From NCBI GenBank assembly GCA_965248515.1, contig CBDFJU010000002.1:878847-942846 (forward strand): a stretch of 64,000 nt of DNA, read 5' to 3'. The stretch is from Dehalococcoidia bacterium. Lineage in GTDB: Bacteria; Chloroflexota; Dehalococcoidia; SHYB01. Positions within the stretch are counted from its first letter, which is position 1. Each line of letters starts with the position of its first letter. The notes under the pieces were generated by a model. The model saw only the letters and a program-made list of their open reading frames with translations, searched no databases and was not told where the DNA came from. Positions 53,215 through 63,441 of the stretch are shown here, in pieces. The position numbers and the translations under genes were made by a program.

Positions 53215-54075
53215 GTGGCACAAGAGTACACGAACATGCTCGTCGAGCACGACGGGCGCATCGGTCGCATCATCATCAATCGCCCGGAGAAGCACAACGC
53301 GCTGCTCCACCAGGCGGTCTACGAGTTCCCACGCGCAATCGACGAGTTGACGGCCGACGACGAAGTCCGCGTGATCATCATGAAGGGCGCCGGGCCGTCG
53401 TTCAGCTCCGGCTTCGACTGGAAGGTGATCGAGCGCCCGGGTAGGGCCGAAGACGCTGTCCACGAGGTGTTGACCGGCCGCGACTGGCTCCACGGGCTCT
53501 TCAAGATCTGGGACACGCCGAAGCCCGTGATCGCGCAGCTTCACGGCTATGCCGCGGGCTGGGGCAGCCTTCCCTTGCTGTTCTGCGACCTGAGGTACGC
53601 CGCGCCCGACTTCAAAGTGTTCAAGGCGGCGGGGGTAACCGGCGCCTACCTCGGCGAGGTCTGGGCCTGGTTTGTCGGGACCACCGCGGCCAAGGAGTAC
53701 ACGTTCCGCCCCACCAACAAGCTGACCGCCGACGAGCTGTACAATTACGGTCTCCTGAACCGGATCTACCCCCAGGACGAGCTCGAGGCGCGGGTCGAGG
53801 AGATCGCCGCCGAGATCGCCACCGCGCATCCCCTGTTTCTCCAGCTCCAGAAGCTCGGCCTCAACCGGCAGATCGACATGCGCGGCTTCCGCGAGTCGGT
53901 GCTCCAGGCGAAGGACTTCGACGCCATGCTTCACTGGTCGGTGCTGGGACGCGCCAACATGGTGCGCCTGAGGCATCTGGGTGGCGACCGTCGCAGACTC
54001 GCGGAAGAGCAGGAAGACACCGAAGCATACTGGAAGGCCCGCGAAGCGGACCCTCGTACGACCGGGCAGTGGTAG
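53215..54075 (+). CDS. Enoyl-CoA hydratase/isomerase family protein
   Basis: GRIIINRPEKHNAL...MKGAGPSFSSGFD...GYAAGWGSLPLLFCD; GTG 53215 follows GGAGGG. Confidence 0.75.
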   Translation: MAQEYTNMLVEHDGRIGRIIINRPEKHNALLHQAVYEFPRAIDELTADDEVRVIIMKGAGPSFSSGFDWKVIERPGRAEDAVHEVLTGRDWLHGLFKIWDTPKPVIAQLHGYAAGWGSLPLLFCDLRYAAPDFKVFKAAGVTGAYLGEVWAWFVGTTAAKEYTFRPTNKLTADELYNYGLLNRIYPQDELEARVEEIAAEIATAHPLFLQLQKLGLNRQIDMRGFRESVLQAKDFDAMLHWSVLGRANMVRLRHLGGDRRRLAEEQEDTEAYWKAREADPRTTGQW

Positions 54076-54085
54076 GAGGCGGTTG

Positions 54086-54976
54086 ATGGAATACGGGACG
54101 CTGAAGGTCGAGCACGACGGACGCGTCGGCCGGATCATCATCAACCGGCCGGAGAGACACAACTCGTTTCCGATCTCCACTGTTCACGAGTTTCCCGCTG
54201 CGATCGACGAGCTCAACGAGGACGAAGAGGTCCGAGTCGTCATCCTGAAAGGGGCCGGGAAGTCCTTCAGCTCGGGCTTCGATACGTCGTCTCACCAGTC
54301 CGAGATGACGGAGGCCGAGCGATCGAGCAAGAGCCCGATGGGCAAGCTCTGGGAGGACGCAGCCCACGAGGTCCTGGGGAGCCGGAAGTGGCTCGCCGGG
54401 CTGTTCAAGATTTGGGACTCGCCCAAGCCGGTGATCGCGCAGCTTCGCGGCTACGCAGCCGGGTGGGGCAGTCTGCCACTGTTGTTCTGCGACCTGCGCT
54501 ATGCCGACCCGACGTTCAAGGTCTTCAAGGCCGCGGGAGTCACCGGCGCTCACCTGGGCGAGGTCTGGAGCTGGTTCATCGGCATCACCGCTGCGAAGGA
54601 GTTCACCTTCAGGCCGATGAACCGCCTCACCGCCGACGAGCTGTTCAACTTCGGCCTGGTGAACCGGATCTACCCTGAAGACGAGCTCGAGCAGCGCGTC
54701 GAGGAGATCGCCGCCGATATCGCCACGGCGCATCCCCTGTTCCTGCAGCTTCAGAAGCTCGGCCTCAACCGTCAGGTCGACTTCCGGGGTCTCCGCGAGT
54801 CCATCTACTCGAGCAAGGATTTCGACGCCCTGTTGCACTGGTCCGAGCTCGGGCGCGCCAATCTGGCACGGGTGGCGGAGCTGGGCGGGGACCGCCGCCG
54901 CATGGCCAAGGAGCAGGAGAGCGGCGACGATTACTGGGCGTATCTCGAAAAGCGACTCAAAGAGGGGTCGATCTAG
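54086..54976 (+). CDS. Enoyl-CoA hydratase/isomerase family protein (tandem paralogue)
   Basis: About 60% identical to the upstream paralogue by eye; AGGAGG SD. Confidence 0.8.
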   Translation: MEYGTLKVEHDGRVGRIIINRPERHNSFPISTVHEFPAAIDELNEDEEVRVVILKGAGKSFSSGFDTSSHQSEMTEAERSSKSPMGKLWEDAAHEVLGSRKWLAGLFKIWDSPKPVIAQLRGYAAGWGSLPLLFCDLRYADPTFKVFKAAGVTGAHLGEVWSWFIGITAAKEFTFRPMNRLTADELFNFGLVNRIYPEDELEQRVEEIAADIATAHPLFLQLQKLGLNRQVDFRGLRESIYSSKDFDALLHWSELGRANLARVAELGGDRRRMAKEQESGDDYWAYLEKRLKEGSI

Positions 54977-54997
54977 CCGGGAGAAGGCATCGCTTCC

Positions 54998-62128: not shown

Positions 62129-62173
62129 GGCGTCAATGTGGGATGAATGTGAGCGTCTTGCTGGCCCTTACCC

Positions 62174-62437
62174 ATGAGTGCATCCGAACCCATCTGGCAC
62201 GCCTTCAACGCCCGAATGGCAGCGCACATCGTGTATTCGAGCGATGATGTGTATCAGACGGCTTGTGGACTGTTCGAAGTCAGCAACGAGGACTGGCCTC
62301 ACATGATGGATAACCTCTGGACTCAGAATACTTACTACCTCGGCCGGAAGTCTTCGGGACTGTGGAAGGTTGCCCCCTCCGATCAAAAACGGTGCAGGAA
62401 CTGCGAAAAGCAAGTCAAAGCCAAAGAGAGGCCCTGA
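62174..62437 (+). CDS. Hypothetical small protein (87 aa)
   Basis: Stop overlaps the next start (TGATG); no recognisable motif. Confidence 0.3.
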   Translation: MSASEPIWHAFNARMAAHIVYSSDDVYQTACGLFEVSNEDWPHMMDNLWTQNTYYLGRKSSGLWKVAPSDQKRCRNCEKQVKAKERP

Positions 62438-63441
62438 TGGGTGCTCCCCTCGGCATCTGCCTGCGCAACACCCTTTCCATCGACAGCCTCGTCGCGCTGT
62501 CGAAACGGGCAGAGGACCGCGGCTTTCACAGCATCTGGATCACCGAGGGGACCGGGTCGAAGGACGTCATCACCCAGATGGCGGCCGTGGCGACGGCGAC
62601 GGAGCGCATTCTCATCGGCTCGGGGATCATCCCTATCTGGATGCGGACGCCGATCATCCTGGGCGCGAGCTTCCTCGGCCTCGACGAGCTGTCGAAGGGA
62701 CGCGCGATCATGGGCCTCGGCTCGGGCCATCGCAACGCCATGCGCGACTTCCACGGTGTCGAAATCAAGCGCTCGGTGGCCCACATGCGGGACTACGTCG
62801 CGGTGGCCAAGCTGCTGTTCAGGGAGAAACGCTTCAGCTACGACGGCGAGACCGTACGGATCGCCGGTTACCGACGCACCGTGACTCCGTACAGCGACGA
62901 CATCCCCGTGTACATCGCGGCGCTGGGCCCACGGATGCTCCGGCTGGCCGGCGAGTGCGCCGACGGGGTGCTGATGAACTGCATGACGCCCGAGCACGCA
63001 GCCCGGGCCGTGGCGACGATCCACGCCGGGGCCCGCGACGCTGGCCACAACCCCAAAGACGTCACCGTGGGCAGCTACATCATGACTTGCATGAACGATG
63101 ACGAGGAAAAAGCGTACGAGACGGTGCGAATCATGGCCGCGGCCTACGCCCGAGACGCCTTCTACAACGCTATGCTCCGCCAGGCCGGGTTCGGCGACGT
63201 TCTCGATTCGATCTCCGGCGAGCTCGAGGCGCGTGACCTCAAGGCCGCCGCCGCGAAGGTCCCCCAGAGCATGGTCGATTCGATGGCGGTCTACGGGAAC
63301 GCGGAGCAGTGTCGCGCCCGGCTCCAGGCGTTCGTCGACGCCGGCATCGATCTGCCGGTGGTCCATTCGATGCCGGTCCGCGGCGCCGACCCGTGGGAAG
63401 AACACGCGGGGCTCATCGACGCTTTCGCACCAAGTGCGTAG
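62437..63441 (+). CDS. LLM-class (luciferase-like) flavin/F420-dependent oxidoreductase
   Basis: DSLVALSKRAEDRGFHSIWITEG...GLGSGHRNAMRDFHG; GAGAGG SD before ATG 62437. Confidence 0.75.
   Translation: MGAPLGICLRNTLSIDSLVALSKRAEDRGFHSIWITEGTGSKDVITQMAAVATATERILIGSGIIPIWMRTPIILGASFLGLDELSKGRAIMGLGSGHRNAMRDFHGVEIKRSVAHMRDYVAVAKLLFREKRFSYDGETVRIAGYRRTVTPYSDDIPVYIAALGPRMLRLAGECADGVLMNCMTPEHAARAVATIHAGARDAGHNPKDVTVGSYIMTCMNDDEEKAYETVRIMAAAYARDAFYNAMLRQAGFGDVLDSISGELEARDLKAAAAKVPQSMVDSMAVYGNAEQCRARLQAFVDAGIDLPVVHSMPVRGADPWEEHAGLIDAFAPSA

What the first reader, a model, noticed from the sequence alone, without database searches (positions are those of the whole stretch)
53215..63441. Second CoA-thioester cluster with a tandem-fused double family III CoA-transferase
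Two crotonase paralogues lead into an 813-aa protein made of two complete CaiB/BaiF-type CoA-transferase units in one chain. After it come an SMP-30-type lactonase, an acyl-CoA dehydrogenase, two further family III CoA-transferases and an LLM oxidoreductase. Family III CoA-transferases work as interlocked homodimers, so a covalent tandem fusion implies an obligate pseudo-heterodimer, possibly with two substrate specificities. Including zone 1, the window holds six family III CoA-transferase domains and two lactonases, which suggests catabolism of a lactone or hydroxy-acid class.
Basis: partly seen in the sequence, partly recalled or inferred. Interest (0 to 1): 0.6.

Follow-up and report, generated by a model that had tools for sequence, protein, structure and literature searches.

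The report
Two-domain family III CoA-transferase operon
The 813-residue protein is a real single-chain fusion of two different family III CoA-transferase units, an architecture already described (DddD, PtmU4 and thousands of homologues), so this is an uncharacterised new member of a known enzyme class, not a new kind of enzyme.

Summary
A co-directional, tightly packed gene set at 53.2-63.4 kb encodes two crotonase-fold paralogues, an 813-aa protein with two complete PF02515 units, an SMP-30/SGL lactonase, an acyl-CoA dehydrogenase, two more family III CoA-transferases and an F420-class LLM oxidoreductase. The fusion is not an assembly artefact: two independent metagenome contigs carry the same uninterrupted ORF at 85% identity, about 90 protein clusters and 80 genomes carry 700-870-aa homologues, and both units are under equal purifying selection (omega 0.15; linker 0.58). 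AlphaFold2 gives one compact body (pLDDT 92, pTM 0.94). The halves are only 25% identical. The N unit resembles the nucleophile-less BbsEF chain (9fn0_A). The C unit resembles the chain whose Asp178 forms the CoA adduct. The C-unit Asp is invariant in 91/91 fused proteins. The N-unit position is variable, though Asp in this protein. The next two CoA-transferase genes form the same pair unfused (Gln versus Asp). [quoted passage not shown] Substrate and pathway stay unknown. Only the dehydrogenase travels with the fusion across genomes. Corrections: the window has five CoA-transferase units, not six. One gene has a frame-shifted start. Both "crotonases" lack the canonical catalytic glutamates.

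The parts
53215..54075 (+). Crotonase-fold paralogue 1. GTG 53215 and ATG 53236 are the alternative starts. It lacks both canonical hydratase Glu residues.
   Evidence: PF00378 at 4.8e-29. Below every NCBIfam cut-off. Aligned to 5zai, Leu and Ala sit at E113/E133.
54086..54976 (+). Crotonase-fold paralogue 2. It has the same substituted active-site motif (GYAAGWGSLPLLFCD) as paralogue 1.
   Evidence: PF00378 at 1.2e-29. About 72% nucleotide identity to paralogue 1. Omega 0.066 against L001.
54998..57439 (+). 813-aa two-domain family III CoA-transferase (whole ORF).
   Evidence: PF02515 twice, 458.9 bits in total. AF2 pLDDT 92.3 and pTM 0.94. Orthologues P0001/L001 and L084 at 85% identity.
54998..56080 (+). 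N unit (aa 1-361), A-type (BbsEF chain A-like). Asp164 (codon 55487-55489) sits at the nucleophile position, which is not conserved in the family.
   Evidence: Best PDB match is 9fn0_A at 1.2e-31, where the equivalent residue is Tyr. The position is variable in 91 fused proteins. Omega 0.15.
56081..56179 (+). Interdomain linker (aa 362-394). It is poorly conserved and variable in length among homologues.
   Evidence: Alignment A2. Omega 0.58 against 0.15 in the flanking units. pLDDT dips to 61 there.
56180..57367 (+). C unit (aa 395-790), B-type (BbsEF chain B-like), with the invariant catalytic Asp566 (codon 56693-56695).
   Evidence: Best PDB match is 9fn0_B at 3.2e-44. Asp566 aligns with D178, the CoA-adduct residue named in the title of 9fol. 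Asp is present in 91/91 fused proteins.
57429..58334 (+). SMP-30/gluconolactonase-type (SGL) six-bladed propeller hydrolase. Its start overlaps the stop of the fusion by 11 nt.
   Evidence: PF08450 at 2e-45. Nearest PDB entry is 7plb at only 57 bits. Overlap shown.
58364..59551 (+). Acyl-CoA dehydrogenase of the ChsE4/FadE26-PimC type. It is the only neighbour that travels with the fusion across genomes.
   Evidence: Three ACAD Pfam domains. PimC_large scores 243 bits against a cut-off of 624. 4x28_A at 4.4e-70. A homologue lies within 10 kb of the fused gene in 27 of 46 genome loci.
59585..60810 (+). Single-domain CoA-transferase T3, A-type, with Gln176 (codon 60115-60117) in place of the catalytic Asp. 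Its start is damaged or atypical: the mechanical ORF call is 59704-60810, the frame is open from 59338, and the homologous ATG at 59585 is out of frame by one base.
   Evidence: Omega 0.156 against L001.
60800..62128 (+). Single-domain CoA-transferase T4, B-type, with Asp205 retained (codon 61412-61414). It overlaps T3 by 11 nt and is the closest paralogue of the C unit.
   Evidence: PF02515 at 2.8e-88. 9fn0_B scores 145.9 bits against 72.7 for chain A. C unit to T4 scores 158 bits at 30% identity.
62437..63441 (+). LLM-class oxidoreductase, F420-type by best matches. The ORF call starts at 62362, but comparison with L001 puts the start at ATG 62437.
   Evidence: PF00296 at 6e-74. Best NCBIfam matches are Mer and F420 LLM families, all below cut-off. 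Collinearity with L001.

Best explanation
The 813-aa ORF is a genuine two-domain (tandem) family III CoA-transferase. It is a gene fusion of an anciently diverged A-type subunit (usually without a nucleophile) and a B-type subunit (catalytic).

The two units most likely fold onto each other as an intramolecular version of the interlocked dimer of this family. They would then form one conserved active site, built from the C unit's large domain with Asp566 and the N unit's small domain. There, Asp566 accepts the acyl group of a donor CoA thioester as a mixed anhydride. It then forms an aspartyl-CoA thioester and passes CoA to an incoming carboxylic acid.

In the operon, the product acyl-CoA is most likely the substrate of the ChsE4/PimC-type acyl-CoA dehydrogenase encoded two genes downstream. 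The adjacent T3 (Gln) and T4 (Asp) genes encode the same kind of A/B pair in unfused form.

Status of each step:
- Shown: domain content, reality of the fusion, which Asp is conserved, A/B typing, selection, and the genomic association with the dehydrogenase.
- Inferred: interlocked packing, the single active site, and the order of reactions.
- Not determined: the substrate.
For: - Two full PF02515 units.
- Independent contigs with the same ORF and gene order.
- About 90 clusters of 700-870-aa homologues and 80 genome loci.
- Omega is 0.15 in both units and 0.58 in the linker.
- AF2 pLDDT 92.3 and pTM 0.94 for the whole chain.
- The halves are only 25% identical. N is closest to T3 and C is closest to T4.
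- N matches 9fn0_A, which has Tyr at the nucleophile position. C matches 9fn0_B, whose D178 aligns with Asp566. The title of 9fol names a D178-CoA adduct.
- The C-unit Asp is invariant in 91/91 fused proteins and the N-unit position is variable.
- T3 has Gln and T4 has Asp.
- A homologous ACAD lies within 10 kb in 27 of 46 genome loci and within about 0.5 kb in 12.
[quoted passage not shown] The family mechanism and interlocked dimer are described in PMC9196870.
Against: - No coordinates of the model were available, so interlocking of the two units was not verified directly.
- This protein and its one close relative do carry Asp164 in the N unit, so a second active site is possible.
- The N unit keeps several CoA-pocket motifs (NxxKR, GxGxxGP).
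- Both characterised two-domain enzymes do more than plain CoA transfer: DddD is also a lyase and PtmU4 transfers sulfur. Plain transferase chemistry is therefore an assumption.
- No NCBIfam equivalog is reached for any gene.
- The ECH, lactonase and LLM neighbours are not conserved with the fusion beyond this lineage.
Confidence: 0.8

Rival explanations
1. Dual-site enzyme. Both units are catalytic (Asp164 and Asp566). This would give two active sites with different substrate specificities in one chain, for example a CoA relay between two acids or activation at both ends of a dicarboxylate.
For: - Asp164 aligns with the catalytic Asp of 4ed9, SUGCT and Rv3272.
- It is kept in the 85%-identical orthologues.
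- The N unit is under the same purifying selection as the C unit.
- It retains the NxxKR and GxGxxGP motifs.
Against: - In 91 fused proteins this position is Asp in only 5, and those 5 are scattered. Elsewhere it is E, A, G, F or Y.
- The N unit lacks the (V)ENF(R)PG and AGP motifs that the C unit keeps.
- Its closest structural relative is the nucleophile-less BbsEF chain A.
- Two sequences at 85% identity cannot show selection on one residue.
Confidence: 0.13
2. Non-canonical chemistry, as in the two characterised two-domain members. The enzyme would couple CoA transfer to a second reaction such as elimination or lyase activity (DddD) or acyl-CoA to thioacid conversion (PtmU4). It would then be more than a simple transferase.
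For: Both characterised two-domain type III enzymes are bifunctional or atypical (PMC6006322; PMC4437653). The neighbouring crotonase-fold proteins lack the hydratase glutamates, so the pathway is not textbook beta-oxidation.
Against: - No DMSP-type context (BCCT transporter, dddB/C) was found.
- The operon has no adjacent acyl-CoA synthetase or sulfur-carrier cassette.
- The closest structural relatives are ordinary succinyl-CoA-dependent transferases: BbsEF, SUGCT and 4ed9.
- The conserved partner is an ACAD, which fits plain activation followed by dehydrogenation.
Confidence: 0.07
3. Artefactual fusion. Two adjacent genes were merged by a missed stop or a frameshift in this assembly.
For: The window contains other frame breaks: the integrase at 48997/49000, the start of T3 and a TGA in the peroxiredoxin. 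Sequence errors are therefore conceivable.
Against: - Errors break ORFs; they do not join them.
- The same uninterrupted ORF occurs in two independent metagenome assemblies with no indel at the junction.
- It also occurs in about 90 protein clusters and 80 genomes.
- The linker stays in frame, with omega 0.58.
- High GC3 continues through the junction.
Confidence: 0.01

Closest known systems
[quoted passage not shown]
   Same: [quoted passage not shown]
- The catalytic Asp is conserved in the C-terminal domain.
(PMC6006322; DddD domains at 1-416 and 439-821, PMC7174347.)
   Different: - No DMSP-catabolic context and no thioacid-cassette context (no adjacent acyl-CoA synthetase).
- The neighbours here are an ACAD, crotonase-fold proteins, a lactonase and an F420-type LLM.
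- This protein also has an Asp in the N unit.
[quoted passage not shown]
   Same: - It is a heteromer of two diverged family III subunits. One subunit (chain B) carries the Asp178 that forms the CoA adduct. The other (chain A) has Tyr at that position.
- The N and C units, and likewise T3 and T4, match chains A and B respectively.
- TM-score to the target is 0.92-0.93 for the C unit.
- An ACAD (BbsG in the bbs pathway) follows in the pathway (PMC10818641).
   Different: - Identity is only 21-29%.
- The subunits are separate polypeptides in BbsEF.
- The bbs operon also has an SDR (BbsCD) and a thiolase with DUF35 (BbsAB), which are absent from this cluster.
- The N unit here has Asp where chain A has Tyr.
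Homodimeric family III CoA-transferases (formyl-CoA transferase Frc/YfdW, CaiB, SUGCT, Brucella 4ed9)
   Same: Same fold and the same Asp nucleophile position. Each unit aligns over its full length. [quoted passage not shown]
   Different: Those are two identical chains with two equivalent sites. Here there is one chain with two non-equivalent units.
Paralogue-rich CoA-transferase / LLM / lactonase gene sets proposed for alicyclic and recalcitrant carbon oxidation (SAR202; Landry et al. 2017)
   Same: CaiB/BaiF-type transferases occur together with luciferase-like enzymes, and lactone-opening steps are proposed. Some of the transferases have DddD as their best hit (PMC5395668).
   Different: That work is a genome-scale hypothesis, not a defined operon. 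The LLM here matches F420-dependent reductase/dehydrogenase families, not FMN monooxygenases. The organism of this window is unknown.

Membership tests
Family III (CaiB/BaiF) CoA-transferases, PF02515 | Full-length match to the family profile | tested here: met
   N unit covers profile positions 4-358 of 366 (196 bits). C unit covers 1-366 of 366 (267 bits). Each unit gives a Foldseek TM-score to target of 0.85-0.93.
Family III (CaiB/BaiF) CoA-transferases, PF02515 | Catalytic Asp nucleophile at the start of the long central helix | tested here: met
   Asp566 in the C unit aligns with BbsEF D178 and is invariant in 91/91. Asp164 is present in the N unit, but that position is not conserved in the fused family.
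Family III (CaiB/BaiF) CoA-transferases, PF02515 | Interlocked dimer with active sites at the interface between subunits | not testable with these tools
   pTM 0.94 for the whole chain indicates a defined mutual packing.
[quoted passage not shown] | [quoted passage not shown] | tested here: met
   the linker (aa 362-394) is variable in length and has omega 0.58.
[quoted passage not shown] | Conserved Asp in the C-terminal domain | tested here: met
   Asp566 is invariant in 91/91. The literature criterion is in PMC6006322.
DddD (DMSP CoA-transferase/lyase) | Orthology to Marinomonas DddD, and a ddd gene context (BCCT transporter, dddB/dddC, LysR regulator) | tested here: not met
   The context test is not met: none of these genes lies in the operon or in L001. 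Sequence orthology was not tested, because no DddD sequence or model was available and NCBIfam gave no DddD hit.
PtmU4-type thioacid cassette | Adjacent acyl-CoA synthetase (PtmA3-like) forming a two-gene cassette | tested here: not met
   No AMP-binding gene lies in 52.9-64 kb or in L001.
BbsEF benzylsuccinate CoA-transferase | Close sequence relationship and a bbs operon context (BbsG ACAD, BbsH hydratase, BbsCD SDR, BbsAB thiolase with DUF35) | tested here: not met
   Identity is only 21-29%. An ACAD is present, but no SDR or thiolase lies in the cluster. The crotonase-fold genes lack the hydratase Glu residues. Thiolase/DUF35 pairs exist only about 45 kb away.
Canonical enoyl-CoA hydratases (the two 'crotonases') | Two catalytic glutamates (E113/E133 in 5zai numbering) | tested here: not met
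   Leu and Ala sit at these positions in paralogue 1. Paralogue 2 has the same motif. The fold and oxyanion-hole motifs are present.

The most novel reading that the evidence does not exclude
In this lineage the normally nucleophile-less N unit carries an Asp (Asp164). The single chain would then hold two different working active sites. It could run a CoA relay, or act intramolecularly or at both ends of a dicarboxylate or lactone-derived hydroxy-diacid. This would be chemistry beyond plain transfer, as already seen in DddD and PtmU4.

Because the parent fold is an interlocked dimer, the fused chain would also have to thread through itself. That may make it a topologically entangled single-chain enzyme. 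No experimental structure of such an enzyme exists: no PDB chain covers more than half of the model (TMq at most 0.47).
Probability: 0.12. Interest if true: 0.55.

Novelty: new member of a known kind. Interest (0 to 1): 0.25.

Why it matters

This window adds three modest points.

1. It gives a clear reading of the architecture. The fusion is an A-type (usually nucleophile-less) unit joined to a B-type (catalytic) unit. These correspond to the two subunits of the recently solved BbsEF enzyme.
2. A fused pair and a split pair sit side by side in one operon. That is a convenient natural experiment on why such heteromers become fused.
3. The fused gene shows a conserved genomic partnership with a ChsE4/PimC-type acyl-CoA dehydrogenase in Binatia, Myxococcota and Halieaceae. 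The neighbourhoods there look like steroid, terpenoid or alicyclic acid catabolism.

None of this overturns current understanding. It is a reasonable target for enzymology and for the first structure of a single-chain family III enzyme.

Tried and rejected
- **Fold search against afdb50.** This was meant to find full-length two-domain models such as DddD. The library was not available.
- **Genome scan with the 78-sequence alignment.** It failed because no stretch was conserved enough. It was repeated with a 7-sequence alignment.
- **Exact-sequence look-up of the window protein.** It is not on record, so the source organism stays unidentified. Genome and metagenome scans found nothing closer than 85% (two contigs of one lineage) and otherwise at most 40%.
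- **Literature searches.** Searches for a paper describing the BbsEF structure, and for Rv1866 as a characterised fused enzyme, found nothing usable.
- **NCBIfam.** No cluster protein reaches a curated cut-off, so no equivalog name can be given.
- **Integrative element at a tRNA as the origin of the cluster.** The ARAGORN tRNA calls at 50167-50259 and 51964-52050 are not confirmed by Rfam. L001 shows the cluster with its peroxiredoxin neighbour in a uniformly high-GC3 background. This was left as an observation.
- **Recent internal tandem duplication as the origin of the two halves.** Rejected, because the halves are only 25% identical and each is closer to a different single-domain paralogue.
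- **Pseudogene status of T3.** Not supported, because omega is 0.156.
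Full report
**1. Observation**

The + strand between 53.2 and 63.4 kb carries eight closely spaced genes.

- Two crotonase-fold paralogues: 53215/53236-54075 and 54086-54976.
- An 813-aa ORF: 54998-57439.
- An SMP-30/SGL lactonase: 57429-58334.
- An acyl-CoA dehydrogenase (ACAD): 58364-59551.
- Two single-domain family III CoA-transferases, here called T3 (59704-60810 as an ORF call) and T4 (60800-62128).
- A luciferase-like (LLM) oxidoreductase: 62362-63441.

The stop of the 813-aa gene overlaps the lactonase start by 11 nt, and T3 overlaps T4 by 11 nt. 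This is typical of an operon.

Searched separately, the two halves of the long ORF each match PF02515 over essentially the whole profile. Residues 1-361 score 196 bits and residues 395-770 score 267 bits.

tblastn finds five CoA_transf_3 units in the window, not six.

**2. Is the fusion real?**

That can be set aside for five reasons.

- A 12.6-kb contig from another metagenome (L001) is collinear with window 52891-63993 at about 83% nucleotide identity. It carries an 815-aa ORF in the same place.
- A third assembly from a different sample (L084) carries it as well. There is no indel across the junction.
- A protein search returned about 90 clusters of 700-870-aa proteins with the same architecture. 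They include Mycobacterium, Steroidobacter, Rokubacteria and 'Deltaproteobacteria'.
- A scan of species-representative genomes returned 80 loci in Binatia, Myxococcota and Halieaceae, including the cultured Seongchinamella sediminis and Pseudohalioglobus lutimaris.
- Between the window and L001, dN/dS is 0.15 in the N unit, 0.148 in the C unit and 0.58 in the 33-residue linker. Both units are maintained by selection and the linker is a relaxed in-frame spacer.

The window does contain other frame breaks (see section 7). Such errors split ORFs; they do not join them.

**3. Anatomy of the fused protein**

The two halves are only about 25% identical to each other (54-62 bits). The C unit is closest to T4 (158 bits, 30% identity) and the N unit is closest to T3 (91 bits). 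The fusion therefore joins two anciently diverged paralogues. It is not a recent internal duplication.

Against solved structures, each unit matches a different subunit of benzylsuccinate CoA-transferase BbsEF.

- The C unit matches 9fn0 chain B best (3.2e-44).
- The N unit matches 9fn0 chain A best (1.2e-31).

Asp566 of the query aligns with residue D178 of chain B (my count on the alignment). The companion entry 9fol is titled 'D178-CoA adduct'. In chain A the equivalent residue is Tyr.

I aligned the query with 90 fused homologues.

- The C-unit Asp is invariant (91/91).
- The N-unit position is Glu in 22, Ala in 21, then Gly, Phe or Tyr.
- It is Asp in only five scattered sequences. Two of these are the query (Asp164) and its 85% orthologue.

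The single-domain genes show the same split. T3 has Gln176 at the nucleophile position and prefers chain A (150 versus 98 bits). T4 keeps Asp205 and prefers chain B (146 versus 73 bits). The operon thus encodes the same A-type/B-type pair twice, once fused in A-B order and once as overlapping genes in A-B order.

AlphaFold2, run on a 78-sequence alignment, gives mean pLDDT 92.3 and pTM 0.94 for the whole 813-residue chain. Only the linker region drops, to about 61. Such a pTM means the relative placement of the two units is predicted with confidence. This is consistent with an intramolecular pseudo-dimer.

I could not inspect coordinates, so the interlocking characteristic of this family (PMC9196870) is inferred, not shown. 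No PDB chain covers more than half of the model (TMq at most 0.47). No two-domain member has a solved structure in that library.

**4. Mechanism proposed**

The family mechanism is established (PMC9196870; PMC6006322).

1. The Asp attacks the donor thioester to form a mixed anhydride.
2. CoA-S- then forms an aspartyl-CoA thioester.
3. The acceptor carboxylate takes over CoA.

For this protein the conserved site would combine the C unit's large domain (Asp566) with the N unit's small domain. The N unit would mainly be the obligatory structural partner, as BbsEF chain A appears to be. Fusion fixes the 1:1 stoichiometry and the pairing.

The presence of Asp164 leaves room for a second site in this lineage. 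Against that, the N unit lacks the ENF(R)PG-type and AGP motifs that the C unit keeps, and the position is unconstrained across the family. I put the dual-site reading at about 0.13.

**5. Pathway context**

No protein of the cluster reaches an NCBIfam curated cut-off.

- The ACAD is nearest to PimC-large (243 bits against a cut-off of 624). Among structures it is nearest to 4x28_A and Tcur3483. From my own knowledge, these are subunits of the steroid-type alpha2beta2 dehydrogenases.
- The LLM matches Mer and F420-dependent families best.
- The lactonase is only remotely related to any structure (7plb, 57 bits).
- Both crotonase-fold proteins have Leu and Ala where the hydratase 5zai has its catalytic E113/E133. 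They should not be assumed to be hydratases.

Across the 46 genome loci of at least 15 kb, a homologous ACAD (at least 200 bits) lies within 10 kb of the fused gene in 27 loci and within about 0.5 kb in 12. The ECH pair, the lactonase and the LLM accompany the fusion only in the window/L001/L084 lineage. The conserved module is therefore the two-domain transferase plus the ACAD, that is, activation followed by alpha,beta-dehydrogenation, as in BbsEF followed by BbsG (PMC10818641).

Neighbourhoods of two relatives at 37-39% identity contain genes that look like steroid, terpenoid or alicyclic acid catabolism.

- KstD-like flavoproteins
- A steroid 5-alpha-reductase-like gene
- A P450 and a TetR regulator
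- SDR, MaoC and LEH/SnoaL proteins
- An MMPL/sterol-sensing transporter

**6. Comparison with what is known, and novelty**

Tandem family III CoA-transferases are an established class. Dong et al. [quoted passage not shown] They describe a poorly conserved linker and a conserved Asp in the C-terminal domain. They counted 2,401 two-domain homologues and characterised PtmU4. DddD had been the only earlier characterised member (PMC6006322). DddD has CaiB domains at 1-416 and 439-821 (PMC7174347) and needs a catalytic Asp (PMC4437653).

The present protein meets the defining features of that class. It lacks the gene contexts of DddD and of the PtmU4 thioacid cassette.

It is therefore a new, uncharacterised member of a known kind. 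The mapping of the N and C units onto the two BbsEF subunits, and the fused and split pairs in one operon, are useful details and not a discovery of a new system.

**7. Other things seen**

- T3 start. The T3 frame encodes a canonical N-terminus (SSGPLAGVRVLDLS...) upstream of the ORF call, but has no ATG, GTG or TTG there. The ATG homologous to L001's start (59585) is out of frame by one base. T3 is still under purifying selection (omega 0.156).
- Extra DNA before the LLM gene. The window has about 297 bp of lower-GC DNA with an 87-codon ORF (62174-62437) that L001 lacks.
- Peroxiredoxin with an in-frame TGA. Directly upstream of the operon is an AhpC/TSA peroxiredoxin (52602-53063). Its peroxidatic Cys codon is an in-frame TGA, followed by an 8-bp hairpin. 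This makes it a candidate selenoprotein.
- Codon composition. The cluster has GC3 of 0.85-0.91 against 0.55-0.75 for most of the window.
- Mobile elements. The 11.8-50 kb interval is a mosaic of IS elements, a methylase, an RHS protein, a DUF3987 primase and a split integrase.

**8. Verdict**

Novelty is low to moderate, and interest is 0.25.

Noticed in passing
window 52602-53063 (+): An AhpC/TSA peroxiredoxin. Its read-through product is 153 aa and matches PF00578 at 120.7 bits over profile positions 1-123 of 124. An in-frame TGA (52737-52739) sits exactly at the peroxidatic Cys of the PxxxTxxC motif. It has an AGGAGG ribosome-binding site and an 8-bp hairpin 19 nt after the UGA (fold z = -2.0). 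This is a candidate selenocysteine peroxiredoxin, a known kind. No Rfam SECIS hit was found, and no Sec machinery was seen in the window.
   Followed up: partly
window 59554-59704: The third CoA-transferase gene (T3) encodes a canonical N-terminus upstream of the first usable start codon. The ATG homologous to the orthologue's start (59585) is one base out of frame. This could be a sequencing indel, a very recent frameshift or a non-canonical start. The gene is under purifying selection (omega 0.156).
   Followed up: yes
window 62131-62437: About 297 bp of lower-GC DNA (54%) lie between T4 and the LLM gene and are absent from the orthologous contig L001. They contain an 87-codon ORF (62174-62437) whose stop overlaps the LLM ATG. 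The ORF has no Pfam match.
   Followed up: partly
window 53236-54976: Both crotonase-fold paralogues have Leu and Ala at the positions of the two catalytic glutamates of canonical enoyl-CoA hydratases (motif GYAAGWGSLPLLFCD...FKAAG). They are probably not simple hydratases.
   Followed up: partly
window 52900-63441 compared with the rest of the window: There is a sharp codon-composition break. GC3 is 0.85-0.91 in the cluster, and also in 7377-8955 (-). It is 0.55-0.75 in most other genes. The orthologous contig L001 is uniformly high in GC3 (0.78-0.88). This suggests horizontal acquisition or a chimeric or mosaic contig.
   Followed up: partly
window 11818-50000: This interval is a mosaic of mobile and defence-like genes.
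- IS3-type transposases: 11818-12947 and 36849-38215.
- DDE_Tnp_1/SWIM transposase: 28715-30091.
- DNA methylase: 20844-21905.
- RHS-repeat protein: 31245-34829.
- DUF3987/NrS-1-type primase: 44307-46823 (-).
- Tyrosine integrase split by a frameshift: 48179-48997 and 49000-49305.
   Followed up: partly
window 50167-50259 and 51964-52050: ARAGORN calls a 93-nt tRNA-Ile and an 87-nt tRNA-Leu(gag). Rfam finds no tRNA at gathering threshold in 49300-53300, so both calls are doubtful.
   Followed up: partly
window 746-8955: Zone 1 holds one Asp-bearing single-domain CoA-transferase, three SCP-x/Thiolase_C_1 thiolase-like genes, two DUF35 (ChsH2-type OB-fold/zinc-ribbon) genes, an ECH and a 7-bladed lactonase (PF10282). 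Thiolase and DUF35 pairs resemble BbsAB or Ltp2-ChsH2 retro-Claisen and aldolase systems.
   Followed up: no
L002-L081 (genome loci), e.g. L013 9965-12451: In the clade of fused proteins at 33-40% identity (Binatia, Myxococcota, Halieaceae), a ChsE4/PimC-type ACAD lies within 10 kb in 27 of 46 long loci, and often directly adjacent. Two neighbourhoods examined carry KstD-like, steroid-reductase-like, P450, SDR, MaoC and MMPL genes.
   Followed up: partly
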